A DNA stretch of 64,000 nucleotides from Octopus sinensis. Its lineage: Eukaryota. Numbering within the stretch: position 1 is the stretch's first letter; the number at the start of each line of letters is the position of its first letter. Under the pieces are notes generated by a model. It was not told the DNA's origin and did not search any database. It saw only the letters and a program-made list of their open reading frames with translations. The stretch is taken from assembly GCF_006345805.1 (NCBI RefSeq), contig NC_043018.1, positions 27,714,001 through 27,778,000 of the forward strand. Direction: 5' to 3'. Position numbers and translations under genes: made by a program. Shown one piece after another: positions 1-63,044 of this stretch.

Positions 1-644
1 ATAGACGCGAACATTAGAAGTATAGTCTCAATTAGTTTAGTTTACCTTCTTTAATAATCTTTCGGTTTCTGTTTCAGCTCCTTTACAGCTCTCTAAAATT
101 ATTCAATTTTAGATAGGCATATATTTATAGACGCGAACATTAGAAGTATAGTCGCAATTAATTTAGTTTAGAAGAAAACGTTTGTAGCTACGGTAAAGTA
201 TATATATTTATAATTTACATCTTGTTAATAATCTTTCATTTTCTATTTCAGCTTTCCTCTTAATAATCTTTCATTTTCTTAATCTTTCATTTTCTTAATC
301 TTTCATTTTCTATTTCAGCTTCGTAACCTCCTCTCTTTCTTTTCTTTCTCTCTCTGCCTCTTCACTTCTCTCTATCACACCATCTTTCTTCTCTCAGCCG
401 TTCAATCTTTCCTTGTCTCTTCACTTTTCCACTTCTCTCTCTCACACCATCTTTCCTCTCTCAGCCTCTCAATTTTTCTAAATATATAGTCCCGAACTTT
501 CTTCTCTTACTCTCTTCTTATCTTCTCTCAGCTCTCAGTCTCTCTAAATACATAGACACTTTCTTTCTCTATTTCTTCTCTACCCTCTATCACACTATTA
601 AATTTCAAATATAATTAGATAGATAAATAAATAAAATATCCAAA

Positions 645-1561
645 ATGTCCAGAACCTGGAGAAGTAACGAATTGGCGTTGTTGCTGAGAGATAATCCGAA
701 CAACATAATTACAGCTGCGCTGAAGAGCAGTGGATATAAAAGGACAATAGCTCAGATAGAGCGAAAGAAGCAGGAATTTATACGCTTCTATGCACTCATA
801 AGATCTCACATTGGCACGCTTGATGCCATCTTTGACAACGAGCAAAGTAAAGATGGCAAGGATGGAGACGCGGGTGCTGATGAAAGAAGTCACCCCCACT
901 TGGTAGACACCCAGGAAGAAGATTCAAGTGAGAAACCTGCCCGGGAAGTAAACCCAAGTGCAAGTGCTCCTACCAGCACCAAAAGCGATGGAGATGAAAG
1001 AACCAAAAAAGAATTAAAAGGAGGAAAAACTAAAAGAAAAACAAAAGGTGAAACAGCCAAAGAAGGAAAAACTATAACTCAAACAAAACCAAAAAGGAAA
1101 CAGCCAAGGATAGAAGCAAACCTGACTATCCATGTACCAAAAAGGATAGAAACAAACAGTGCACACGAATGTGTAAATTCTACCTGAAAGGTGTCTGCTG
1201 GCATGGAGAGGAGGGTGCAGGCTGCCGTTTTGCACATCAAAGACCCTACCACATGAGCACGAAACAGGTCAGAAACCAACTACTAAAAGGAAAAGGAATG
1301 GACCACGCACCACCTGCCCCAAAACGGAGGTATGCAGATGTGGTGCGTGCTACAAACCGCCAACACGTTATTGAAAGGGCAGCTGCTGAACATGAATCTT
1401 TTTTGTGCATGGCACAAAATATTGTACAGCAGCTAACCTGGCTCCATCAAACTCAAACTCGCAGATGGGACTATCCACAATACACAAGACCGCCACAGCA
1501 AATAGACCCAAGTTGGATACCGCTGGCAACAGCATACACCTCACCTCGATGCTCCTACTGA
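645..1561 (+). pseudogene. LINE ORF1 (frameshifted; ORFs 645-1187 and 1169-1561) with CCCH zinc finger
   Basis: Basic low-complexity region followed by CKFYLKGVCWHGEEGAGCRFAH (C-x7-C-x8-C-x3-H); its stop overlaps the ORF2 start. Confidence 0.65.
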
Positions 1562-2778
1562 ACATCAGAGGACTGCTAACACTCAGTAACAGGACAAAAG
1601 TCCCGTTCTTGAGGGACTTTGTTGCATGCAATCAAGCCTTATGCATAGCACTTACGGAAACACACCTGAAACCGGACAGAGCAGATGCGGAAATACACAT
1701 ACCACAGTATGTTGTACTACGGACCGACAGAAAAGAAAGAAGCCATGGAGGAGTTGCTATGTACATCCGTGAGGACCTCACACCCCAGGTCCTTTTGTCA
1801 TACTCAAATTCGGTGTGTGACACACTAATTGTACATATAAGGCAACTTGGTGTAGTTATATGTGCTACATATCGCCCTCCAGATGCCCCAAGCCATGTAG
1901 GCAAGTTTGAAGATTGCCTTATAAAAATAGAAGTTCTAGTCACATTAGAACAACACATATGTGTACTTCTTATGGGAGACTTCAATCTACCCAATGTCAG
2001 ATGGCCCGAGGGCCTCTCTCTTCTAGGAATGACACGATGTGAACGAGGACAAGCGAGGTCCCTCCTGAACCTCATCAACACTCTGTACATGGAGCAAGTA
2101 ATATTCCAACCAACCAGGGCAGGTAACATACTGGATCTCTGCTTCACAAATAATATGGATCTTATCCATGATGTGAAAGTGACACCGACACTACTCTCGG
2201 ATCACAACAAGGTAGAGCTGACCATGTACGGGCCAAAGGAAAGCATGGACATGCAGTCTACAAGAAACTCTCAGAATCTTTCCAGCTTGAACTTCCATAA
2301 GGCAAACTGGAAACAAATTGAGAAAGAGATCCTCAAACAAAACTGGCCTGAATATCTCTCCTCGCCAGACATTGACATGAAACTTCAACAATTCATGTCT
2401 GTAATACAAGCCATATGCTACAAATGTGTCCCAGAGAGAAAGGCCACTGTACACATGAGCAAAATCCCCAGAGAGAGGAAAATTCTAATGAGACGGCGTA
2501 CAAAAGTTTCAAATCGCCTAAACAAACAAATTGAAAGCAGTGAAAAGTCCCGCCTGAAAATAAAACTGTTGGAAATTGAAAAATGTCTGCAACTCTCCCA
2601 TGAAAAAGAAAGAGCAAACAAAGAAGCCTGGGCTATAGACAACATAAAATCTAACCCCAGAGCTTTCTACAGGAATGCCAAAGAAACAGCTACGGTGCAC
2701 TGTAGGATAAGGCCACTCCTTGAAACGGATGGCACACTCACAGGAAATCCAATGAGGGTAAGTGAAATACTAAATTAG
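1549..2778 (+). pseudogene. LINE ORF2 N-terminus, APE-like endonuclease
   Basis: Motifs LLNIRGL, IALTETHL, GGVAMYIR, YRPP, MGDFNLP, PTRAGNILDLCFTNN, SDHN; premature TAG at 2776-2778. Confidence 0.92.
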
Positions 2779-2851
2779 CAATTCAAGACTATTTTCACTC
2801 CACCCCTAGGGGATTTTCAAGTCAGCAATCCAACTGACTTCTTTACCACTG

Positions 2852-3622
2852 CTGGACAAAATATACAAGTGGGCTGAAAAGAATAGCATGCAGTTCAATG
2901 CTGAAAAGTTTCAAGCTCTATGCTATCAGCACGCAAAACTAAATGCAATACCCAATAAACACACTGGACCTGGTGGGACTGCAATCCCAGAGGCACAATC
3001 AGTGCGAGACCTGGGTATTTACATGAGTGATGATGCAACCTTTCATGTGCATGTTGCTAAATTGGCAATGAAATGTAGGCGGCTGACCGGATGGATTCTT
3101 AGAACCTTTAGAACAAGAGACCAGGAAACCATGATGGTCCTTTGGAGGACACGTGTCCTAAGCCACTTTGACTATTGCTCTCAGCTATGGTCACCATCCA
3201 GTGTCAAGTTAATCACAGAACTTGAAGCGATCCAACGAAGCTACACGAAGAAGATAGCCACTGTGCAGCATATAAGCTATTGGGAAAGACTCAAGAGGTT
3301 GAGACTCTATTTCTTAGAGCGTAGGCGAGAAAGATATGCCATAATATACATCTGGAAGATCCTAGAAGGACTTGTCCCAAACTTTGGCATCGAGAGTTAC
3401 ACAAATGACAGAACTGGGCACCACTGCATAGTGCCAAGGACTCCAAATTTGCCATCAAGATGTAGGACAAGATACTGTGATAGCCTGGGCTTCCGAGGCC
3501 CACAGCTCTTCAATATCCTCCCGAAGAACCTAAGAGATCTGCATGGGGTGGACGCAGATGTCTTTAAAATGAAACTGGATCTCTTCTTGTCAGGTATCCC
3601 AGATGAACCAACTTCACGGTAG
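2852..3622 (+). pseudogene. LINE ORF2 C-terminus (end of RT plus CR1-type C-terminal domain)
   Basis: LDKIYKWAEKNSMQFNAEKF, VRDLGIYMS, DYCSQLWSP, YWERLKRLRLYFLERRRER, FKMKLDLFL. Confidence 0.9.
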
Positions 3623-9179: not shown

Positions 9180-10615
9180 TTATGTATGTATTCTCATGTA
9201 TATAGTTGCATATCTAGACACGCTCATATATATTTAAATGATAAACTTCTGGAAAGTTTTTAAGAATTTTATAGTTCCAGTGATGGATTAAATCTGTAGT
9301 CTTCGAATTAGCTTTCTCCTTTCTGGTTTTGAGAAGCTTAATTTGTCAAGATTGGTATTTAGGCAATGAGTTACATCTTCCAGTGTCCCAATAATTACAG
9401 GTATAAACTTGAACTTGTAATCTGGATAGAGTAACTGCATATTTCTCAATAGTTCAGCGTAGTATTTTCTTTTCCACTGCTCCAAAACGGCACACTGTTT
9501 TTTTCTTTTCTATCAGGTATTAATTCTCTTTTCACTGATCTCCAGCTTTATGTTAACATCCGCTGGGCAGCTGATTTCCACAACAGTATAACTTTCTGTT
9601 CTGAATCCCAAATCATTATATCAGTTCTTCACTAATGTTTTTCACTAGGACATTCCACTAAGACATTCTCCTTTTTATCATGTGTGGATATGGCTTTTAC
9701 CATACTGTGGGTTCTTATTTCTTTGTCCTCCGCGTTATCCTGCCAACGGATTTCATTATAGAGTGTCCTAGCTACCATATCGTGACTCATCGGTAGATAA
9801 TACCGTAATGACATTTTCGAACAATTCCTTATAATGTGGATGATACCTTCGGTGTTAACTCCACAAAGTCTGCATCGGTTCTCACATTTTACTGTTTTCC
9901 GGCATCTCTATCCCTTTTGTGCATCATGTGTTTGGTTGATATTTCCTGTCCCTGGATTGCAAACGCATACCCTTCAAAGAGGGATGTAGTAATCCAAATG
10001 TTGGTCCATGATGATCAATGTTAATTTGATGATCAATGTTACTGACGTCTGGAAACTTTCCACTGACACATCCACGCATGTTCTTCTGCTGATATACGCT
10101 CATCCTTTCATCTGATAATATGTTTCGGTAGAGTCGTGCGACTTCTTTTGGCATGTATTTAAGGTCATCAGACAAGGAGTGCTGCTCAAGGAGCTGTCTT
10201 CAACGTCTTATGATGTTATCAGTCACGTGTATGCAAACTTGATCAAGGGATGCACTTCGAAATATGGTGGTTAAAAAGGTATTGCCGAAGGGATATGACA
10301 CGACATTCAAAGGCAATTTGGATCGATGTTAAGCCTCTGTTACCTTGTTTTCGTATTAGGTAGCGCCGTCTACGTCACTGTTGATGTGGAAATTATGTGT
10401 GATTGTTCGTATCTTCTTGGTTTTCACATCAATTGCTCGGATCTCATCAAGAGTCCAATCAAGCAGTCCAAATGTTGGTATGAGTACTGGCACTGAAAAC
10501 ACATTGTGGGCCACTGTTTTATTGAATGCGGAGAGTTTCGAGGTCCAAATTTTCTTTATTCGGCTGTAATATTCTTTAGTGAGATGTGTTTTGTTACAGG
10601 GGTCATTGTAAGACG
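9180..10615 (-). mobile_element. R4/Dong-clade LINE, 5'-truncated (RT end, CCHC knuckle, restriction-like endonuclease)
   Basis: KEYYSRIKKIWTSKLSAFNK..IPTFGLLDWT, CRLCGVNTEGIIHIIRNC, HDMVARTLY, FIPVIIGTL; abuts (TATG)n at 10616. Confidence 0.85.
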
Positions 10616-11156: not shown

Positions 11157-11235
<79 letters not shown>

Positions 11236-11265
11236 CCTATCTATCTATCTATCTATCTATCTATC

Positions 11266-11915
11266 GTTAATATTGTCACGCCTCCCTCCTTCAAACGGGA
11301 AGGAAGAGCTATTTTCATCATCCTTGTGGCTATGGCGAAAGAATGTATCTGGTGGACGCGTCTGAAAGGATTGGAGACAAACACTTTCCTCTCTGGTCAA
11401 TCTCTCATCAACTTCTTCAAGTACCACTTGAAAGGGAAAGTGAGAGTAGAGAGGCAAGTTTTGTCTAGCGAATGTTTTAAAAAAAGATGGGTGAATGTAG
11501 CAAGAATGGCACGTATGAATGACGAAGCCACCTTGAGCATGATCCTATGAACCCAGAAATTGAAAACAGAGAGTTGCTTATTTGCAAAAAAAAAAAGAAG
11601 AAATATAACATGTGACTCCATTGACCGAGGTTACCGTGGTCTTTTCCGTAGGCTTTTCTTTCCACGGGTAAACCTCACCTGTCCTCCCCTTTACACTTCA
11701 TATTGACATTTCTGTGATAACGATCCCTATTGATCATTTTTTTTTTCCTCTCCCCCTTTTTTTTTTAACCCCCCTTTTTTGTCCTCTTTCTCTCCTTTTA
11801 CGATCCCTTTTGATCGAAACTCCCCCTTCCTTTTTTTTTTTTAAACCTTCAAAAGAAAAAGCTCTACCTTGTAATTTGTTCTATGTGTGCAGCCCTGTGT
11901 GGCTAATAAAGAAAC
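11266..11915 (+). mobile_element. 5'-truncated Tx1-clade LINE inside (TATC)n
   Basis: Peptide MAKECIWWTRLKGLETNTFLSGQSLINFFKYHLK and 3' UTR match 51660-52195; (TATC)n on both sides. Confidence 0.92.
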
Positions 11916-11916
11916 A

Positions 11917-11977
<61 letters not shown>

Positions 11978-11978
11978 G

Positions 11979-12019
<41 letters not shown>

Positions 12020-12599
12020 ATCTATCTATCTATCCATCGATCTATCTATCCATCGATCTATCTATCTATCTATCCATCCATTCATCCATCCATCCATCCA
12101 TCTATCTATCTATCTTTCTATCTATCTATCTATCGATCGATCTATCTTTTATCTATCTATCTATCTATCTATATATCTATCTATCTGTCCGTCTGTCTGT
12201 CTGCTAGTCTGTTTGTCTGTCTGTTTTCCTGTATGTCTGTCTATCTATCTGTCTCTCTCTCTCTCAATTTCTCTGTCTGTCTGTCTGTCTATCTATTTGT
12301 CTGTCAGTATATTTGGATACCTATATGTCTATTTGGATATCTGTCTATAAATGTATTTTGCGATCTGTCTGTCTGTGTGTTGCTAAGACTAATACAATCA
12401 GCAAGAGTAACATTACCGTTTTCATCATTGTCATCGTCACCATCATCAACACAATCAGCGTCGTTGTCATCATCATCATTATTGTTATCATCATCACCAA
12501 TATATACGTACATATACACATACACGTGCACACACATATACATATAATATATACACACACACGTACACAAGCACACAAAAACGAAAATGGAAAAAATGG

Positions 12600-22377: not shown

Positions 22378-24970
22378 TTAGGTTGTCAAGGAAGTTCTTG
22401 CGGTTTTTAACCTTTAAATTCAGATGCACATATCTCGGCTCAAACAAAACTTTATTAATCGAAATAAACACTATCAGAATCGGCACACTTTTGCCAATGC
22501 GAAACAAGTTTATTTATGCCAGTAGCGTAAATATTCTGCGTTCTGGTGGTGATGAAGTCGTCGAAGACCTGTTTGGCATCGTCTTGGTTTTTGATGCATT
22601 TCTCATGCTGGAAGTTGTCGTGATGCTTGCAAAAGTGGTAGTCGTTAGGCGGGAGGTCTAGTGAGTATGGCGGATGAGGCAGAGTTTCGTGGTCCAATTC
22701 GTTCAACTTCTGCAGGGTCAGTTGTGCGACGTGCGGCCGAGTGTTGACATGAAGAAGAATTGGTCCTTTTGTATTGACCAATGCTGGCCGTTGTTGTCGG
22801 AGTTTCTTATGCATTTCATCCATTTGCTGACAGTACTTCTCCGCCGTAATGGTTTCGCCTGGATCCAAAAACCTGCGATGAATGAGACCGGCCGCAGACC
22901 ACCAAACAGTCACCGTGACCTTTTTTGGGTGCAACTTTGGCTTCGGGAAGTGCCATGGAGTTTCATCGGCGTCCAATCACTGAGCTGAGTGTCGCCGGTT
23001 GTCGTAAAGAATCCACTTTTCATCATCGCAAGTCACAATCCGGTCGAGAAACGGGTCGTTCTTGTTGCGTAAAAGGAGGGAAGATGACACTTCAAAACGG
23101 CGTTATTTTTTTTGTTTATTATTATTTTTTTTTTTGGTTGTCGTTCAATTCGTGCGGCGCCCATTTCTCAAGTATTTTTGTTTTTCCACTCTCTTTCAAG
23201 TGGTTGGAAATTTTCGTAAACGTTACGTCTAATTCAGAAGCAAGCTCTCGAACAGTTGTGCGTGGATTGGCTTCCACTTAGGCTCTTTGTTGACCGTTGT
23301 CAACATCCGATGGACAACCACCACGCTTATTATCTTCAAGACTCTCGTCACTGTTACGAAATTTCTTGAAGCACCATTGTCCTGTACGTTCATTAGTGAT
23401 TCCTGGGCAGAAGGTATCGTTAATATCACGAGCTGTTTCAGCAGCTTTTCGACCTAGCTTGAACTGGAATAAGAAAATTGTGAAAATTTGCTTTTTGTCC
23501 AAGTATTGAACGTTCCAGAAAAAATGGGCTAATTACTCAAAAAGAAAAAAAGAGTAATACGATTAGATAGAGCGAAAAACGGACTTTAAAAGGATCTATC
23601 AGGTCATCCAATAAGTTCTGTCCGAATTTTGAATAAAGAAAACAAATGATCAAATATTATATTTAATTGAAATTTAATCATCAATATACTTCCCCTGATT
23701 ATCTATGACTTCCTTCCATCTATCTATTCACAAGCTTTTTAATCCCATCAATGTAAAACTCTTTTGGTTTCAAAGAGGAGAACTCTGCAATGTCAGTTTT
23801 GACCTCCTCCTGACTTGCGAAAGTTATGTCCCCCAAATGATTCTGTAAACCACGAAACAAATGGTAGTCTGAAGGAGCAAGGTCGGGAGAATAAGATGGA
23901 TGAGGAATTTATTCCTAACCAAGCTCTTCGATCTTCTGTGATGTGATCTTTGCAGTGTGGGGTCGCACATAGTCCTGATGAAACATCACTCCTTTTCGAT
24001 TCACTAAAGCGGGTCTTTTTTTTCTTCGAAGCTTGGTTCAAACGCTCTAATTGCTGACAGTAGTCTTGAGCATTGATTGTTGCATTAGGTTGGTAACAAT
24101 TCAAAAGTGAATTACTCCTTTGCAATCCCACCAGATAGAGAGAAGAACCTTTTCCCCATGAAGTTCCCTTCTCGGGTGTGGTTGAGCCTTTTCCTTTTTA
24201 CCAAGCCACTGATTACGACGTTTAACATTTCGATAGAAGATCCATTTTTCGTCACCAGTCACAATTCTATCCAAAAAGGGTGAAATGAGTTCGCGAGAAT
24301 AGAGAGAAGAGCAGATGTCAACTCGGGATTTGCGGCTGCTTTCGGACAATTCATGAGGCACCCATTTTCCAAGTTTAGGAACCTTTCCAAGTTTAGGAAC
24401 CTTTCCAAGTTGTTGAAGATGACGATGAACAATTGTATGGTTTGAACTAATCTTTATTGCCAATTTTTCAACTGATAATGCAGGATTTTCTTCAAGTAAT
24501 GCCTCATGAAGCTTATCATCAAACTCAGCTGGACGTCCTGTCGCTCTTCATCTTCTGAATTTTGCAAACCATCTTCTGCAAGTTCTTTCATTCTAGTATT
24601 ATTTTCCATAAACTGAGTGTATGTTTCGAGTCATTCCTTTATTGCACTCACAAAGCATTATGTGCATCAAATGCTCTTTGGATACTTCCCTTCTAGAAAG
24701 GGTTTTAATCAACGAAATTTTAATTCTATTATTCTGTAAAATAATATTTAATTGGTTTAAATGCACACAAATGCATAAAAATATTTTTTACTTCCATTAG
24801 ACATTCCAAAAAACTATTAAATTTCATTCAATTTAAAAAAAAGGTAAAATCGGACAGAACTTATGGGATGACCTGATATAGTGTTAAAGTAATGTAACGA
24901 AAATTCTTTTCAAAATACATCATTTAAGACTAAAATTTAAAATTCCGCAAGAACTTTCTTGACAACCTAA
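22378..24970 (-). mobile_element. Mariner transposon (outer), decayed DD34D transposase at 22455-23505
   Basis: TIR TTAGGTTGTCAAGGAAGTTCTTGCGG at both ends, TA TSD; motifs FKLGRKAAETARDIN, VWWSAAG, HPPYSLDLPPNDY. Confidence 0.95.
23599..24876 (-). mobile_element. Mariner transposon (inner, nested)
   Basis: TIR TCAGGTCATCCMATAAGTTCTGTCCGA, TA TSD; motifs WVPHEL, IVTGDEKW, YSPDLAPSDY. Confidence 0.95.
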
Positions 24971-26289: not shown

Positions 26290-27730
26290 GTGAATTTTCC
26301 CTGTCATGTCTTTTCACTTTCAGCTTAGGACGACTTTTTTTTATATTATTTTCCCGCTTTTCTTCAATACAAGTCCTTATTTGAATATTCAATTGCTCCT
26401 CGTCGCATTATAAGGCTGTTGAATGCCAGTGTCGGTAGTACATGGTGTATCTCTGTTTTTCCGTCTGTAGGGATGGTCGGGCGTTGCTTGTTTCCACCGC
26501 TACAGCAGTTGGTGCTTTTGTGGTGTTGGGATTCTGTTGTTGAAGATATTACTGCCTTGATTGTTGTTACAGCTTTTGACCTTCTTGTGATGGTGGTGGT
26601 AAAAAAGCCGCTGTTCCTCGAGCTCCGATTTGTTGTTGTGATCAGAGCTCCTTCAAATGTGTGTTAGACCCACAAGTGTGGCACTTTGGTTTTCTGCCAT
26701 CCACCCTGACATGGAGTTGTGGTCTGTTGGGAAGCTCGATAAGGTCGTGGACCTTGTCTAGGGATTCCAGTTTTACTTGGATCTAAATCTCCAACCCGAT
26801 TCCGGACCAGTTTCCTTCCGATAATTTAAAATTTCTAGAAGCGAATCCGACCACAGCACACCAACCAACCACCAAATGTCTAATTCTGGTGGCACATCTG
26901 ATATTTTAACTTTCACCACCCGCCGTCTAAGGTATGTGGGAAAGAGGAAACCTTCGTGTTTGCACTGGACCATTGATTGTTTTGGGGCCAGTGCCTCTGT
27001 GAGGAACCTCACTCCCACAGAACCATATTGTCTCCCTCGTGTGAGGAAATCAATATCAGTCTAAATGTTCTTCAAGCATTTTTTCTGCTTGGATATGTGG
27101 CGCATTGAAGATTTTCCTCGTCTTTAATGACACACATCTATATACGATGGTCCTTCTGGCCGTCTTCTCCATCCAATCTGAAGGAATAACAAGGGAAAAA
27201 CTCCTCTCTCTATAGAGGAGTTTTTCTGCTTCACTCAGATACGCATGTTTTTCTTCCAGGGAGATTTGCTCCTGCAATTTTGTTAGTCCTGCAAAGGCGT
27301 TGTTTTTATCGTGGCTGTTATTGTTGGTGTTGATTATATCGTTTTTGCTGCTGATGTTGTTCCTCTCATTATTGGTGTTAGTCGGAGCCAAAGCAACGCT
27401 GTTGTTTGTAGTGATGCTTGTATCGGTGACTGAAGTAGCCAAGCTACTCACTAACGAGGGGAAATCATTTATATTTTTCAAGTACTGCTTATTTTTCCCT
27501 CCCGTCAAAGCTTTAGTGTTGCTGTTGTTGTTGTTCCTACTGCTGTTGCTGCTGCTGCTGATGTTACAGTTGTCGTTGTTGCTGCTGTTATTCTTCGTAG
27601 TGGTTATGGCAGAGGTGATCTTGGTAGTGGTGTCGGAGTTGCTAGTTATGATTGGGATGGTCATTTTCTTTTGCCTACTTGCTTGTCTAGTAGTCGTGCC
27701 AAAAGTCGAAGAACTGTCAACCTCTCATTC
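26290..27730 (-). mobile_element. Tx1-type ORF1 remnant (different subfamily), no ORF2 seen
   Basis: T/N-rich N-terminus; VKVKISDVPPELDIWWLV and RVDGRKPKCHTCGSNTHL parallel the 47085-48116 ORF. Confidence 0.7.
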
Positions 27731-28229
27731 TTGCGACGACACTCCTCTGTCTCTCGCCTCTCTCATAGAGATAATAACAGCGACAGATATAAAGTGTTGC
27801 GGTTTATATATACGCCAGCTAAGCTAAGTTGAACTGTCTAAAGTCGAAAGACACCTGTTGTTTTTGTCCTGTTACTGTGATTATTATTATTGTTTTTTGT
27901 ATTTATATTCGTATTACCTTTTGTTTTTTGCATTTATATTCGTATTACCTTTTGATTTTTGTATTTATATTCGTGTGGCATCGTCCGTTTTTCTGCCCTT
28001 GTTTCATATATATTCGATCCTTTTTCCAAGAAATCTAATACTCGTAGCTTAGTTTTTCCTTGGGGCTGGCCGGATCGGAGCGATCTCAAGATTAATCAGC
28101 CGAAATTGCAAGGATGATCCGATTTTGACTGAAGATTAGAGGCTTCGAATGACCCGTCCATTTTTTGTGTCGTCTATTTGAATGTTTTGCGTTCTTGTTC
28201 CATTTTGTATTTTTATATATATTTTTTAT

Positions 28230-45525: not shown

Positions 45526-45677
45526 AAGAAAGAAAAATGCTTCCAACCAAATGCTTCATTTCTTTCTTTTCATCTTCTGAATATTCTTATTAAACGATTT
45601 TCTTGTTTTCATTCCCCAGATTTCGTTGAAAGATCGGAAACGTGAGGCCGAATCTGTCTATTTACCTAACCTCTATC

Positions 45678-45726
<49 letters not shown>

Positions 45727-45855
45727 CTATCTATCTCCTATCTATCTCATCTATCTATCTATCTATCTATCTATCCATCTATCCTCTATCTATCTATCTA
45801 TCCATCCATTTCTATCTATCTATCTATCTTCTATCTATCTACTATCTATCTATCA

Positions 45856-45886
<31 letters not shown>

Positions 45887-46090
45887 CATCTACGGACGTG
45901 CTGTCACTTCGGCTCCGAAGGTAATCGTTTATTTTGACTATTTATAGCCCATATTTTGTGTACATTTTTGTAAATAAGGTGTGTAAGGCACCCAACTTTC
46001 GTTTGAGTGCTTTTCCAAGGGAGGAATTCGCCCCTAGGGGCAGTTTCAACCCTATTTAATTTCTGTAATTTTCTTCTCGACATTTTGAAA

Positions 46091-48455
46091 ATGTCGAGAA
46101 ATTGTATTGTAGAACACTGGTCGCGTTCCTTTATCGACCAACATTTTCCTAGTCTGGAAACGCTAGTGCAAAGTGCAAACCTGAATGACATGGCAGTGAA
46201 CGCTGCAACCACTTGCGATAACAGCACTGTCACCACCACCACTAACAACAACACCAACAAGACTACTACTGCTACCACCACCGCCTCCACCACCACCACC
46301 ACTACCACCGCCACCTCATCCACTACCTCAACTACCAACAACAACAACATAACAATGACAACAAGAATAAACAATTGCGCCAGCCACCATTTCGACATCT
46401 GCTGCCACGGCTTTCTCTCTGCCACGGCTGTCTCTTCTGCCACTGACACCACCGCCAAACCAACAACAAAAACAACAATAACAACAACAACAATAACAAT
46501 GACAACAAGAATAACAACAATTGCGCCACCATTTCGACATCTGCTGCCACGGCTGTCTCTCTGCCACGGCTGTCTCTTCTGCCACTGACAACCACCGCCA
46601 ACACCAACAACAAAAACAACAATAACAACAACACAATCCGTTCAGACCTTGTTTCCTCCTCCAACACAAGAACTGAAGTGGAATAAACAAAAGACTGTGA
46701 CCACCAAACAAATTGAAAAAAGCTGCTCGAACACAGAACACACTATGCAAGTAATTTTCCACCCCTTCCTACTTGCACAATCAAACCAAATACACCGATT
46801 TTATTTACCAACTGCAGCCAACAACAACATCACCACCAGCAACAACAATAACAAAACAACAACAAATTTCGCCGAGGCGATAAAAGAAAAAAAGACAACA
46901 GTATATTTTTACTGCACAGCAGATAAAAGATACGAATATTTTAATAACGGAAGTAGATGGTATAGTAAAAATAAACATACCAAAGAAATATTAGAAATGA
47001 AAAAAAAGAACTATTATATATAAATAATTAATAAAAAAACAAAAAGTCCAGAGAAGGCTAACACACAGCAAAATCGAAAAATGCTTGAAACCCATCTGGA
47101 ACTACAAAGAGTATGTGACCTGGTGGAACAAGTTCGCACACATACAAGTGGTCTTCCACACTGAAGAGTTAGCAAGACGTTTCTCAACGCTAACTCTTCA
47201 TTCAGATGAACTGCAACTAACACCAAGCTATCGTGGACAGAAAGTGACTAAGATCACTTTAAACAATGTCCCAAAAATAGCAAACAATCTATGGCTAGTA
47301 AAGGCCTTATGTGTGAAAATGGATGATTTCACAATTTTAGAAACTACGGTCACGAAACACAAAAACTGGGTGGGAAAAAAAGTAGAATTTCTACTACATA
47401 TAAACCAAGAGGACATAAAGAAAATACCCACCCAGATATGTGTATCAGAAGACCACAATTTGTATGTGGTCGTCGATGGCAGAAGACCACGTTGCTACAC
47501 ATGCGGCAGTGAGCAACACCTAAAAAAAGATTGCAAATATGCCGCAAGAAAACAACAGCAACAACAACAACAGCCGGAAAAAACAAAAAAGCCAGCTTTA
47601 CTACCCACACCACAAATTGTACAAACAGGACTAATCACAGAAAATCAAAAAAAAACAAACCTCACCAACCAAACAACCACACCAACTGCACCAAGAACAG
47701 AAGCAACCCACACAACAACAACCAAGAATAAACCAACTCCCAAACCAAGGACATCTGCCAAAAAGACACTCATCGAAAATGAAGAAACAATTACTACTCC
47801 TAACTCCCATCCCACAAAATTGACACCCCAAACAACACAACAATACCTACAATCACTCAAACACAAAATACCCACACCCCCACCTCCAAAACCGCATACA
47901 CCACAACCTAACGCTCACCAACCAACACCAACAACAAAATCAACAGAGTCTACAATAGACCCCAATATTTTCCCTCTCCCAAGCTCTGATTCCTCTGATT
48001 TGTCATTAGACGAAGAAGATTGGCAAATAGCCACAGGGGGGAGAAGAAAAAGGGGAAAAAAAAGAAAAGAAAATATAACAAACAAAGCAGGAAGATTCAC
48101 CACTCCCGAAACATAAACATCCACAGAAAACAAACACATCAACAGAAACACACCATCATCAAACCCCCCAACAATGTTGACAGCCATAAACACAAACAAT
48201 CACGACCTAATGGAACACATTAGGTCAAACACCAACATAACTGAAAACGACATAAAAACAAATAACCACCCACGCACAACACCACCACAACACATTAAAA
48301 TAATACACGTAACACAGAACACATACAGCACCCTGAAATCTCTTTACCCTGATGCAGTAGGGAGATTTCAAAAATATTCATCAAAGAAACAATACAAAAA
48401 CCTCATAGAAGAAGACTGTGAGGTGAAAAACAAAGGACTTTCGAACAACAAGTAA
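46091..48455 (+). pseudogene. Tx1 ORF1, frameshifted, with CCHC zinc knuckle
   Basis: VDGRRPRCYTCGSEQHLKKDC; T/P-rich linkers; WQIATGGRRKR. Confidence 0.75.
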
Positions 48456-48521
48456 CCTTTTCTCTCTCTCTTTCCTTTTTTGCACTTTCTTTTCGTGTGT
48501 AAAACACAATTTTATCGGAAC

Positions 48522-51500
48522 ATGCTCAGAATAGGCAGTATAAATGTATGTGGCTTGGGGTCGCCTTGGAAACAAGGCTACCTGTTAAATGACATCAAGT
48601 CACTAAATCTGAATATCATAGCCATCAGTGAGACCAGACCCCACAGCTCGTGGGCACTCCAGCACAGTTTCGGTACACATTTCAACATTTATTTTTCTCC
48701 GTGTCTACCGAGAATGGGCGGAGGTGGCACCGCGGTGCTTCTCCGGAAGAGTCTGGATCTCAAAGTAAGAGCAATTTCCCTAGACCCGGAGGGTAGGCTG
48801 GTCGTTTTGGATGTCGATGGCAGCAATGAGTGTGCTTTTCGAATGATAGCAGTTTATGCTCCGTCCTTAACAGGCCGACCAGATTTCTTTCGACGTCTAG
48901 AGTCTTTCATGGGAACGTCTCGTCCTTTACTTTTAGTGGGGGATTGGAATGCCACCCTGGACACGCATCTAGACTACGTGAGCAGAGATAGCAATAGAAG
49001 GGGATACAAATGCCTCAAAGACCTGCTCAGACGTTTCCAACTGTCTGACAGGTACCGACTGGACCACCCGAATGTGCCAATGTGGACATGGAGTAACCGC
49101 ATCGGGTCGTCCAGATCATACTTAGATAGAGTATTCTGTAGGACAATTGATAAAAATAGTGTAGGTTGTCCACAATTTCATATAGTCAGTTACACAGATC
49201 ACAAGTTTGTGACTTGTACACTTGACTTAGATAAGACACATAGGCAGGGTCCTGGTTACTGGAAACTGAAGGCGTCTTTTACAGCACGACAGGTTTACAG
49301 GGACCGGATCAGCACATTAGTTAAGAGAGCTTTGACGGGTACCATCATCAACAACAGATGGTGGTATGCCCTAAAAGAAGCAATTAAAGCAGAATCAGTC
49401 AGATACAGTAAAGCCCTAGCATTAGACCGAAATAGAATAGAGGGAGAATTAGTTGAGGTTTTAGAAGAGGCACTGGCATCGCGTCCAACGTGCTGGCGGC
49501 GAGATTGGCCCTCGACTAACACCTCAACGCCAAACACGAGGAATGCGTTGTCAGAGCTAGGATGCGTGCTCTGAGGAACGAAGGAGTTGGAGCCGCCCAA
49601 GAGGCCCGAGTGGTGGAGACGCAACGAGGCAACAGAGCCACCATCAAGTCTCTTATAGATGAACAGGGGCGCGAATTGCTCGAGCCTAAAAGGATGTGTG
49701 GGGCTTTTCAACAACACTTCACCCAACTGTTTGGGACAAGTGGTGGGTCAGAACGCAGTGTGGACTGTAGTGCCTACCTGCATGCCTTGCCACGACTCTC
49801 AGCAAGAGAGGTGGAGTCTTGTGAAAGGCCTATCACAGCTGCGGACGTACAGGATGCGATGGGGGGGCGAGAGACAAGTCACCAGGCTTGGATGGTCTGC
49901 CCTACGAACTTTATTGTCATATACCAGACTTGTTTGGAGGCGTTTTGGCAGCTGTCTACTGCAACTGGCAGCAAAACGGGAGTATTCCTGCTTTTGTAAA
50001 GCGAGGAGCAGTGGCACTGATTAAGAAAGACCCAAACAAGGGGGACGTCATAGATAATTTCAGGCCCATCACTCTGCTCAACGCAGATTTGAAAATTTTG
50101 GCCAAGGTGTTAGCCGAGAGGTTGGCGCTTGTCATCAAGAAACTAATCGACAAGGCGCAAACATGCGCCGTGCCGGGTAGAAGTATTCATGACAACCTCC
50201 ATCTGATGCGCTACATCATAGACAGGGTAGTTAAGAATCCTGGCATGGGTGGGGCGCTGATCAATTTGGATCAATCAAAAGCTTTCGATAGGGTAGACCA
50301 ACACTACTTGGAGGCTGTCCTTAAAGCGGCTGGTTTCGGTCCAGTTTTCCGCGGTTGGATCGCTGCCTTATACAGCGGCATCCGCTCAGTAGTTCGCGTA
50401 AATGGTCATCTATCCAGACCTTTTAACATCATGCGTTCGGTTCGTCAGGGATGCCCCCTCTCATCGCTGCTGTATGTATTGACTCTTGAGCCACTACTGC
50501 GGAAACTGGCGACGCTGAGGGGCATCCCACGAGAGCTGGGATGCGGGAGGAGCGTGTCTGCATACGCGGATGACGTCACCGTCATAGTGTCGAGCTACCA
50601 GCACATCGAGCTGGTCGGCGAGACACTAAAAGAATACGAAGCGGTAACGGGAGCAAAAATTAACCGGGAAAAGTCAGTGGGCTTGCGGCTCGGCACCTGG
50701 ATAAGCAGGCCCATGCCGTCCAACAGCGTCTCCATCGTGGGACGCTGGACGGACGGACCGGTTAAATTGCTCGGGGTCTGGTTCGGTCCGGACCTCCAAA
50801 TGGAGAAGAACTGGGGCGAGATAACAACTAGGGTGGCTACTCTCACCCAGAAATGGGCTGAGAGAAAGCTATCCCTAAAAGGTCGAGCGGAGGTGGCGAA
50901 CGCGTACATCGCATCCGTCATCGAGTATCGTCTGACCGTCGTGCCTTGTCCCGACCCTACCATCACCAAACTGGAACGTATACTCTTTCGCTTCTTGTGG
51001 GAGGGAAACGTTCCGATGGTTAGGCGATCCATTTGCTGTCAACACCCGCTAAATGGAGGGCTGGGCATGCCGTGGTTGATGATGCGCAGACATGCGCTGA
51101 GACTGCGACATCTCCGGCGCTTCATAGACAACGGTGAACAGGTGTGGTCGCCTTTTGTGCGGCGCGCTTTCCCGCAGCTCGTCTCCTTGGACGAACTACA
51201 GTCATGGATCAAGCAGAGACCGAGGCTAGGCGAATGGCACCGCGAGTGTCGCGTTGCTCTCAAGCAACTCTGCCGTCCGGGATCGAACTTGTGCGACTCC
51301 ATCACAACAAAGGCATTCTATAGAGGATTAGTGAAGGGGAGGTGCGACGACGAACTAGGGCAGAGTCTGGGCGTCGACGAGGAACACCTGACCCGCCTGT
51401 TCAGGACAACTTTCGAGCCGGGACCTATGAACAATCACCAAAGATCCCTGGCCTGGCAGTGCTATCGAGAAGCATTACCTGTTCGGGATAAGCTCTACAG

Positions 51501-51947
51501 ACACGGTCCCAGACACACTGGACCGACTTGCCCGAGATGCGGTCAGAGCGACGAAACCGTTCTGCACGCACTCGTGCAATGTCCAACCATTTCAGACCTG
51601 TGGGCTTATGCCGAACGGCTGCTGTCACGTGTGGGACGAATCCGCCTATCGGCCGAGTCTATCGTGAGAATTGCTCCGCCCCCTTCCCTCAACCGGGAAG
51701 GCAAGACAGTTTTCATCGTACTGGTGGCCATGGTGAAAGAATGTGTGTGGTGGACCGAGCGAAAGGATTAGAGACAAACACTTACCTCTCTGGCCAATCG
51801 CTCATCAACTTTTTCAAGTACCACTTGAAAAGGAAGGTGAGAATGGAGAGGGAAGTTTTGTCTCGCGAAAGATTCAAAAAAAGATGGGTGAATGTTGCAA
51901 AGATGGTGCGTGCGAGTGACGAAACCATTTTGAGCATGATCCAGTAG
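48522..51947 (+). pseudogene. Tx1 ORF2 (APE endonuclease, reverse transcriptase, zinc finger), about three frameshifts
   Basis: SINVCGL, ISET, VGDWN, YLDR, TDH; DGLP, FRPITLLNADLKI, LDQSKAFDRV, VRQGCPLS, YADD; CPRC..H..C. Confidence 0.95.
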
Positions 51948-52206
51948 ATCGTAAAAAAGAAAGAGAGAGAGCATTTTGCTCTCATGTGGTTATTTCCTCC
52001 CTGACTGAGGTTCCCGTGGTCTTTTCTGTAGGCTTTTCTTCCCACGGATGAATCCAATCTTGTTTTATCAATGTTTTTATCATTGTTTCTGTGATACGCG
52101 ATTTCTTTTCTTTTTTTTTCCACCCTCGAAAAGAAAAGCTCTACATTTGTATTTGTCCCCTCTGTATTCAGCCCTGTGTGGCTAATAAAAGAAAGTTATC
52201 TATCTG

Positions 52207-52275
<69 letters not shown>

Positions 52276-52419
52276 ACTATCTATCTATCTATCTATCTGT
52301 CTATCTATCCGTTTGTCTGTCTCTCTTCCTATCTACCTACCCATCTATGTATACAACCGTTTATCTGATTTTCTAGATGACTACTTCTCTGTCTGTCCAT
52401 TCAGACATCGATCCATTCT

Positions 52420-52508
<89 letters not shown>

Positions 52509-60311: not shown

Positions 60312-60980
60312 TTATTTCTTTACTACTCACAAGGGGCTAAACACAGAGTGGAAAAACAAAGACAGACAAAGGGATTAAGTCGATTACATCGACCCCAGTG
60401 CGTAACTGGTACTTAATTTATCGACCCCGAAAAGATGATAGGCAAAGTGGACCTCGGCGGAATTTGAACTCCGAACGTAACGGCAGACGAAATACGGCTA
60501 CGCATTTCGCCCGGCGAGCTAACGATTCTGCCATCTCACCGCCTTATGTGTGTGTGATATTTACCTATTTCTTTATTACCCACAAGGGGCTAAACACAGA
60601 GAGGACAAACAAGGACAGACAAACGTATTAAGTCGGTTATATCGACCCCAGTGCATAACTGTTACTTAATTTATCGACCCTGAAAGGATGAAAGGCAAAG
60701 TCAACCTCGGCGGAATTTGAACTCAGAACGTAACGGCAGACGAAATACCTATTTCTTTACTACCCACAAGGCGCTAAACACAGAGGTCAAACAAGGACAG
60801 ACAAACGTATTAAGTCGGTTATATCGACCCCAGTGCGTAACTGGTACTTAATTTATCGACCCCGAAAGGATAAAAAGCAAAGTCGACCTCGGCGGAATTT
60901 GAACTCAGAACGTAATGGCATACGAAATACGGCTACGCATTTCGTCGCCGTGCTAACGATTCTGCCAGCTCACCGCCTTA
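60312..60980 (-). mobile_element. Three head-to-tail SINE family B copies
   Basis: Units at about 60312-60545, 60565-60750 and 60750-60980. Confidence 0.9.
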
Positions 60981-62105: not shown

Positions 62106-62656
62106 ATAGTTTGTAGAAGACGCTTGCCCTAGGCGCCATCCAGTGGGACCGAGACCAGAAACGTGGCTGGGAAGTAAATCTCTAACCACACATCCACAGC
62201 TCTGCCTGGATATAACTTTTATCATGTATTGCCAGATTACTTTAAATATTACATAGTTTAATGCATCAAAGACACCTGTTATCCTGATTAACTGCTGCGA
62301 AAATCAGAGGGGGTCATAAAGCAGTGTTTAATCCATGGAATTTTTTTGTTTTGCAAGGGAGAGAAATCTAATATTATTAGCGAGAGTTACCTCCCTAAAA
62401 TTGTATTTTTATTGTATTAATTATTAGAAGTAAGGAATTACAACCGTGTTTCGTGGTCTGCTCCCACAACAGCTCCTTTATAGGATCCAGTTAGCTCAAG
62501 TCATCATCAGGAGGAACCACGTCCGATTTCGGCCCCTACTCCTCTACCGTTTTGACGTGGCGGGGGCCTCTCCTTTCGGAGGTGTCTTCAGCTCTGGTGT
62601 TGGGTGCATGTCTTCTTTCTTCTTCTTTCTTCTGTTCCCCGGCCTCTTCGAAGTGC

Positions 62657-62710
<54 letters not shown>

Positions 62711-63044
62711 TGTGTGTGTGGGGGGGGTGTGTATGTGCGTGGGCGTGTGTTTGGTTGTGTGTGGGTGTGGTGTGGTGTGGTGTGGGTGGTGGGTGTGTTG
62801 TGTGCGTGTGTGCGTGTGTTGGTTGTTGTGTGTGTGTTTGTGTGGTGTGTTGTATGTGTGTGCGTGTGCGTGTGTTTGTTTGTGTGTGGGGGGGTGGATG
62901 TGTGTCCGTGTTTTTCCCCTCAGCATCGCTTTTTCTTGCGTCTGAAGAAAGTCATATTGTCTTGATGCCTTATTATCGAACACACTCACTGGTTCGATTT
63001 CCACTCGCTTTTCATTATCTATCTTTCTTTCTTTCTTTCTTTTT

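What the first reader, a model, noticed from the sequence alone, without database searches (positions are those of the whole stretch)
45893..52195. Tx1-clade LINE apparently specific for (TATC)n/(GATA)n microsatellites
Seen: both copies of this family (45893-52195 and 11266-11915) lie inside (TATC)n arrays in the same orientation relative to the repeat. Their 3' ends (CAGCCCTGTGTGGCTAATAAA..GAAA) run directly into TATC units with no poly(A). Established: Tx1 elements are often sequence-specific, for example Kibi on TC repeats, Koshi on TTC repeats and Keno on U2 snRNA. Inference: a tetranucleotide-targeting APE retrotransposon. I know of no named TATC-specific family but cannot search. ORF2 needs only about three frameshift repairs, so an active consensus could be reconstructed.
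Basis: partly seen in the sequence, partly recalled or inferred. Interest (0 to 1): 0.75.

Follow-up and report, generated by a model that had tools for sequence, protein, structure and literature searches.

The report
Octopus LINEs landing in TATC repeats
A group of jumping genes in this genome, likely an octopus's, sits inside runs of the four-letter repeat TATC in one fixed orientation at thousands of places, likely because it seeks those runs as landing sites, which would add a new target to an already known class of repeat-seeking retrotransposons.

Summary
Real, and genome-wide. 45892-52196 is a broken full-length L1/Tx1-type LINE; 11266-11916 is a truncated copy of a sister subfamily (about 80% identical), not the same family. 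296 of 312 A-type and 4,735 of 5,607 B-type 3' ends run into TATCT; no poly(A) was seen. 41 of 63 5'-truncated copies also have TATC at the 5' junction, none GATA (background 0.33%; TA repeats are 15 times commoner and never used). Only 4-5 of 67 sampled TATC arrays touch an element, so the arrays are a pre-existing target pool, not mainly element tails. Rare off-array copies show 8-17 nt duplications starting TAT; full-length copies carry a short TATC-like leader. Copies with unbroken ORF2 exist, and one subfamily is 99.2-99.7% identical. Likely mechanism: endonuclease nick on the GATA strand, with priming on UAUC in the RNA tail. Tx1 membership is likely but was not tested against named references. 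Tetranucleotide-targeting Tx1 families are known (TTCC/TTTC); I found no TATC target in nine paper searches, but Repbase/Dfam could not be searched. This scan already noted the same idea on other DNA of this genome (e1-9566112).

The parts
45672..45891 (+). upstream (TATC)n array, the likely target; its last bases (CCATCT, 45886-45891) are likely an element-carried leader
   Evidence: the same variant unit at the same place in 15 of 30 5' ends versus 2 of 270 at the nine units further out
45892..52196 (+). full-length A-subfamily LINE (L1/Tx1 type), broken
   Evidence: 96.7% to another full-length A copy
46091..48455 (+). ORF1, Thr/Asn-rich, CCHC zinc knuckle near 47490-47537; at least two in-frame stops and one frame change
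   Evidence: (zf-CCHC E 0.0013, 19.2 bits, just under the Pfam cut-off of 20.8)
48522..51947 (+). ORF2: APE endonuclease (about 48540-49202), reverse transcriptase (50032-50778), zf-RVT (51442-51603); three frameshifts and one stop
51948..52196 (+). 3' UTR ending AATAAA (52184-52189) then AGAAAGT, no poly(A)
52197..52508 (+). downstream (TATC)n compound array
11158..11265 (+). upstream (TATC)n array of copy 2; 6-base microhomology with the element at the junction
11266..11916 (+). 5'-truncated B-subfamily copy (end of ORF2 plus 3' UTR ending AATAAAGAAACA)
11917..12296 (+). downstream (TATC)n array of copy 2

Best explanation
These are members of a group of L1/Tx1-type LINE retrotransposons that sit in (TATC)n microsatellites in one orientation and likely insert there by choice: the endonuclease likely nicks the GATA strand, and the freed end likely primes copying on UAUC units in the RNA tail. 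Shown: the anatomy, the flanks on both sides, the fixed phase and orientation, short duplications starting TAT at off-array sites, microhomology at 5' joints, empty arrays in large excess, four subfamilies and young copies with unbroken ORF2. Inferred: transcription starts in the last units of the upstream array (hence a short TATC-like leader); the poly(A) signal 6-7 bases before the end would place RNA cleavage inside the downstream array, so priming on UAUC skips the poly(A); the second nick falls about 8-17 bases away; each insertion leaves TATC on both sides, so later copies stack head to tail. Untested: any enzyme activity.
For: 3' ends followed by TATCT: 296 of 312 A-type, 4,735 of 5,607 B-type; only 112 of 5,607 are not followed by T and 0 of the 30 of those viewed have poly(A). 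5' junctions of truncated copies: 41 of 63 with at least 16 TATC-phase bases, 0 GATA, control 0.33%, TA repeats 5.0% in control but 0 at junctions; 8 of 9 young truncated copies; 6 of 6 resolved A-type. 30 of 30 best-scoring full-length A 5' ends have TATC upstream. 4 of 67 arrays adjoin an element, 5 counting one compound tail. Off-array duplications of 17, 11 and 8-9 bases and semi-repeat ones of 16-17 bases all start TAT. 5' microhomology mean 1.44 versus 0.32 simulated; 11 of 32 have 2 or more bases versus 5%. Loose contig ends in three other organism labels also read GAAACA then TATC units. Precedent for RNA-target pairing: SART1Bm and R1Bm (PMC7265360, passages).
Against: 22 of 63 truncated copies lack a TATC run at the mapped 5' junction; some are mis-mapped older subfamilies or later rearrangements, but not all were resolved. 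No empty orthologous site was seen, so that long arrays pre-existed at a given locus is inferred from the genome-wide pool. Only three clean off-array duplications. The leader variant does not cluster on the tree (9 changes versus 9.9 shuffled); this fits an old leader lost by small truncations but gives no positive support for inheritance. 4 of 30 non-T ends run into CA repeats, which suggests that pairing of the RNA end alone can sometimes decide the site. Microhomology took the best match over several references, which inflates it a little; 18 of 50 junctions could not be scored. Samples come from the first part of one contig, not from random draws.
Confidence: 0.8

Rival explanations
1. 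Same targeting, but set mainly by RNA-DNA pairing: a loosely specific endonuclease nicks many sites and only nicks whose freed end pairs with the UAUC tail are extended.
For: Off-array sites share only TAT; 4 of 30 non-T ends continue the terminal CA into CA repeats; no poly(A) is ever copied; short pairing steers priming in SART1Bm and R1Bm (PMC7265360).
Against: TA repeats are 15 times commoner than TATC and would pair with the first three tail bases, yet 0 of 63 5' junctions lie in them; target choice is held to be mainly set by the endonuclease (PMC4494074). Not exclusive with the best explanation.
Confidence: 0.25
2. Microsatellite seeding: the element inserts at random and its own TATC tail and leader grow into the arrays on both sides, as snake CR1-L3 does for AATAG.
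For: Full-length copies carry a TATC-like leader: one off-array copy has about 16 such bases between its duplication and its start (L125), another only 13 (L045); one locus shows 16 extra TATC bases at the 3' joint, though it is a fold-back rearrangement (L127). Arrays next to elements are longer (median 163 versus 94 bases, n = 4 versus 63).
Against: Truncated copies have lost any leader yet 41 of 63 have 5' arrays; joints show microhomology with TATC; 62-63 of 67 arrays have no element; even off-array sites start TAT.
Confidence: 0.07
3. Passive accumulation or assembly artefact: copies survive, or are mis-joined, in repeat-rich DNA.
For: The genome is very rich in simple repeats; passive accumulation was proposed for Drosophila Waldo-A/B (PMC3812793).
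Against: One repeat type, one orientation and one phase at thousands of ends; young copies follow the rule (20 of 20 begin TATCT); independent contigs of other organism labels show the same joint.
Confidence: 0.02

Closest known systems
Kibi ((TC)n), Koshi ((TTC)n) and crocodilian Tx1 families in (TTCC)n/(TTTC)n (PMC4494074: passages and section 15 read; supplements not readable; Kojima and Fujiwara 2004 not read, known only as cited)
   Same: APE-type L1/Tx1 LINEs that sit in a short microsatellite, tetranucleotides included; TATC differs from TTTC by one base.
   Different: Target contains a purine (TATC/GATA); mollusc host; at least 5,900 3' ends in four subfamilies; kinship to the Kibi/Koshi branch not tested.
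Waldo (ACAY) and Mino (AC), R1 clade (PMC3812793, passages read; clade label recalled)
   Same: APE retrotransposons targeting microsatellites, one of them a tetranucleotide.
   Different: Other clade and other target; the closest solved relative of this RT is human L1 ORF2p.
SART1Bm and R1Bm (PMC7265360, abstract and passages read)
   Same: Repeat or site targeting in which RNA 3' bases are proposed to pair with the nicked target; R1Bm needs downstream target sequence for accurate priming.
   Different: SART1Bm copies keep a poly(A) tail and target telomeric repeats; here no poly(A) is copied.
Snake CR1-L3 microsatellite seeding (PMC6050309, passages read)
   Same: LINE 3' ends next to a GATA-like repeat (AATAG).
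   Different: There the repeat is a 3' tail and ATAG showed no enrichment for any element; here the repeat lies on both sides of truncated copies and most arrays are empty.

Membership tests
L1 group of non-LTR retrotransposons (L1/Tx1) | ORF2 with N-terminal APE endonuclease, RT and C-terminal zinc motif | tested here: met
   Exo_endo_phos, RVT_1 and zf-RVT above cut-off in the window pieces and in two unbroken natural ORF2s
L1 group of non-LTR retrotransposons (L1/Tx1) | RT closer to L1 than to other clades | tested here: met
   Best solved relatives: human L1 ORF2p 135 bits versus R2 at most 65 bits; endonuclease best matches L1. Only L1 and R2 came up, so other clades were not compared.
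L1 group of non-LTR retrotransposons (L1/Tx1) | 5' truncations and target site duplications | tested here: met
   63 of 70 sampled copies truncated; duplications of 8-17 bases where readable
Tx1 clade | ORF1 with CCHC knuckle rather than Transposase_22 (consistent with Tx1 per PMC5203782, passages) | tested here: met
   C-x2-C-x4-H-x4-C present; zf-CCHC 18-19 bits, under the cut-off; no Transposase_22 hit. One B2 ORF1 gave no Pfam hit.
Tx1 clade | RT phylogeny inside the clade with Tx1L, Keno, Kibi, Koshi | not testable with these tools
   No named Tx1 protein among the listed homologues or cluster members; the tree holds only unnamed or hypothetical proteins
Target-specific family by the criterion of PMC4494074 | one sequence type in more than 20% of flanks | tested here: met
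   84-95% of 3' flanks, 65% of truncated 5' flanks
Kibi/Koshi and crocodilian TTCC/TTTC families | target is a pyrimidine-only repeat (TC, TTC, TTCC, TTTC) | tested here: not met
   5' junction repeats: TATC 41, CT 1, TGTC 1, ACAT 1 of 63
Kibi/Koshi and crocodilian TTCC/TTTC families | phylogenetic grouping with Kibi/Koshi | not testable with these tools
   No reference sequences available
Microsatellite-seeding LINEs (snake CR1-L3 type) | repeat confined to the 3' tail and arrays mostly next to elements | tested here: not met

The most novel reading that the evidence does not exclude
The element chooses its site mainly with its own RNA: UAUC units read through from the host array at the tail pair with the nicked DNA, and a TATC leader read from the upstream array is copied in, so the element both homes by base pairing and lays down fresh landing pads for later copies. 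Its target would then be changeable by changing the RNA tail.
Probability: 0.2. Interest if true: 0.65.

Novelty: new member of a known kind. Interest (0 to 1): 0.42.

Why it matters
How APE-type retrotransposons pick microsatellites is described as not well understood (PMC3812793). This group gives thousands of junctions, four subfamilies with one shared target, young copies and natural unbroken ORF2s, so endonuclease specificity can be tested against RNA-primer pairing directly. It extends known Tx1-type repeat targets from pyrimidine runs to TATC/GATA and to a mollusc. It is an extension of a known strategy, not a new kind of system.

Tried and rejected
1) Leader inheritance on a tree: the CCATC variant is not clustered (9 changes, shuffled 9.9; L052 left out). 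2) Array creation at L105 (long 5' array, one-unit 3' flank): the two flanks belong to different repeats and are not contiguous, so it is a rearrangement, not evidence. 3) Long apparent duplications inside arrays (L096, L119) cannot be told from array-internal duplication. 4) The 30 loci with TATC followed by a non-T were mostly interrupted arrays and gave one more short duplication at best (L180). 5) Expression: no RNA holder listed; contigs cannot show RNA ends. 6) 3' end hairpin: not better than shuffles (z 0.42). 7) Rfam: 0 matches in the window. 8) Names from the protein atlas could not be had, so clade naming stays open. 9) None of 20 long loci from the first samples had an unbroken ORF2; unbroken ones came only from the RT search. 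10) Paper searches gave no TATC/GATA-targeting LINE; the Octopus vulgaris repeat paper PMC13282606 (first third read, term searches of text and supplement) lists 80 L1-Tx1 families without any target analysis. Supplements of PMC4494074 could not be read and its Figure 3 lists targets that I could not see. No empty-site test on reads was run.

Full report
Observation. The window holds a 6.3-kb element at 45892-52196 and a 651-base fragment at 11266-11916, each between TATC arrays on the same strand. Both end AATAAA plus 6-7 bases and run directly into TATC. The long element has an ORF1 with a CCHC knuckle and an ORF2 with APE endonuclease, reverse transcriptase and zf-RVT. Against a natural unbroken ORF2 the window's ORF2 shows three frameshifts and one stop, and ORF1 is broken too. 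The fragment is not the same family: it is B-type (93% to B references), whereas the long copy is A-type; A and B are about 80% identical over ORF2.

Host and family size. The window lies in G000:C22. The nearest named homologues of the RT region come from an argonaut (66%) and a cuttlefish (53%), so the host is likely an octopus (inference). The shared 21-base 3' motif occurs 5,719 times. B-type ends number 5,607 and A-type 312. Full-length copies fall into A, B1 and B2 and a fourth type that joins an A-type ORF2 and 3' UTR to a B1-like 5' part. Four B2 copies are 99.2-99.7% identical, and 9 of 20 copies fetched from the RT search have an unbroken 1,145-residue ORF2 from the first Met, one of them (L246) also an unbroken 715-residue ORF1. 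None of 20 long loci from the earlier samples did. The group is therefore young in part, and no reconstruction is needed to study it.

3' junctions. 4,735 of 5,607 B-type and 296 of 312 A-type ends continue TATCT; 66 continue TATC then another base; 112 are not followed by T, and none of the 30 of those viewed has poly(A), while most are still TATC arrays with a first-base change and 4 run into CA repeats. Loose contig ends in runs of three other organism labels read the same B-type joint.

5' junctions, the deciding test. I took the first listed ends on contig C1, extended them up to 7 kb, and mapped the point where homology stops. Of 86 anchors, 8 hand-picked ones and 8 unusable or duplicate ones were set aside. 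Of the 70 kept, 63 are truncated: 41 have at least 16 TATC-phase bases at the junction (48 at least 8), none has GATA; all 7 full-length ones have TATC. In 9,423 control windows from the same regions TATC reaches 0.33%, GATA 0.21% and TA repeats 5.0%. 22 of 63 fail the test; some are older subfamilies whose junction was mapped too close, others rearranged, and not all were resolved. Young truncated copies: 8 of 9. A-type truncated copies whose junction lay inside the locus: 6 of 6, 24 of 30 ran beyond it. Where scoreable, 5' joints share on average 1.44 bases with the array versus 0.32 simulated (32 of 50 scored), as expected if the cDNA was joined to TATC that was already there.

Are arrays made by the element? 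A single start phase of seven units occurs 29,454 times. Of 67 such arrays taken without regard to elements, 4 adjoin one, 5 counting a compound tail. So most arrays are empty and form a target pool. Yet the element does carry a little repeat: a variant unit sits at one fixed place before 15 of 30 A-type starts versus 2 of 270 further out, L125 has about 16 TATC-like bases between its 11-base duplication and its start at a non-array site, and L045 has only 13. The variant does not cluster on a tree, which fits an old leader often clipped by truncation but does not prove it.

Duplications. Readable ones are 17 (L082), 11 (L125) and 8-9 bases (L104) at non-array sites and 16-17 at semi-repeat sites (L083, L135, L141); all start TAT. 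The sample is small.

Mechanism. By analogy with L1 target-primed reverse transcription (established knowledge), the strand complementary to the right flank is the primer, here ending GATA. The poly(A) signal lies only 6-7 bases before the end; cleavage usually falls 10-30 bases after it (own knowledge), that is inside the downstream array, so the RNA would end in UAUC units before its poly(A), and pairing there would explain the missing tail. Pairing of RNA with target is proposed for SART1Bm and R1Bm (PMC7265360, passages). The nick register cannot be read from array sites. Whether the endonuclease or the pairing sets the choice is open; the absence of TA-repeat sites favours a specific nick. 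Insertions leave TATC on both sides, and copies stack (L244-L245, L250; seven A-type ends within 27 kb on C6).

Comparison with what is known. The RT and endonuclease are closest to human L1 among solved structures, and an ORF1 with CCHC is consistent with the Tx1 clade (PMC5203782, passages). No named Tx1 protein could be had, so membership is likely, not shown; the tree only shows the subfamilies as one well-supported group next to the argonaut protein. Known repeat targets in the passages read are TC, TTC, TTCC/TTTC, ACAY, AC, TAA and TG (PMC4494074; PMC3812793; PMC4640811). Nine searches gave no TATC/GATA-targeting LINE, and a recent octopus repeat annotation does not discuss targets (PMC13282606). 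Repbase, Dfam, subscription papers and the supplements and Figure 3 of PMC4494074 were out of reach and could hold such a family. An earlier unreviewed note of this scan reached the same reading on other DNA of this genome; my reading was set before I saw it, and it is not independent support.

Verdict. A real, strong and orientation-fixed preference for TATC microsatellites by a young LINE group; a new member, with a likely new target, of a known kind. Interest 0.42.

Noticed in passing
G000:C1:9.87-12.26 Mb (one search list) and window arrays at 11158, 11917, 38850, 45672, 52197, 58839: TATC arrays come in long same-strand runs: 24 listed matches in a row on the minus strand, then 24 in a row on the plus strand; all six arrays in the window are on plus. 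This may reflect transcription or replication direction, and would set element orientation too.
   Followed up: no
L241, L243, L245, L246, L247: A fourth subfamily joins an A-type ORF2 and 3' UTR to a B1-like 5' UTR and ORF1 (about 75% to B1), which suggests module swapping; all four A-type unbroken ORF2s seen belong to it.
   Followed up: partly
G000:C6:102173528-102199792: Seven A-type 3' ends and a B-type RT within 27 kb: a head-to-tail stack.
   Followed up: partly
window 627-3622 (+): Another LINE, CR1-like by recall from its translation (APE frame and C-terminal frame, RT apparently deleted between 2778 and 2810).
   Followed up: no
window 26450-27827 (-): Decayed ORF1 of a related LINE with a knuckle remnant, ending near AAT arrays; weak match to this group's ORF1. 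A weaker match lies at 62583-62945 (-).
   Followed up: partly
window 22455-22976 (-) and 10356-10600 (-): Fragments that look like a mariner transposase and an RTE-type RT, by recall from the translations.
   Followed up: no
L127 (G000:C1:28730776 region): The 3' flank runs into an inverted copy of the 5' flank (fold-back), with a 25-base duplication and 16 extra TATC bases.
   Followed up: partly
L145 (G000:C1:37460001-37460491): Three 63-base 3'-end units in tandem, separated by TATC.
   Followed up: no
L194, L202, L203, L209; L183: Four 3' ends continue into CA repeats and one into GATA (opposite orientation).
   Followed up: no
window 60562-60930: Tandem duplication of a 182-base unit.
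   Followed up: no
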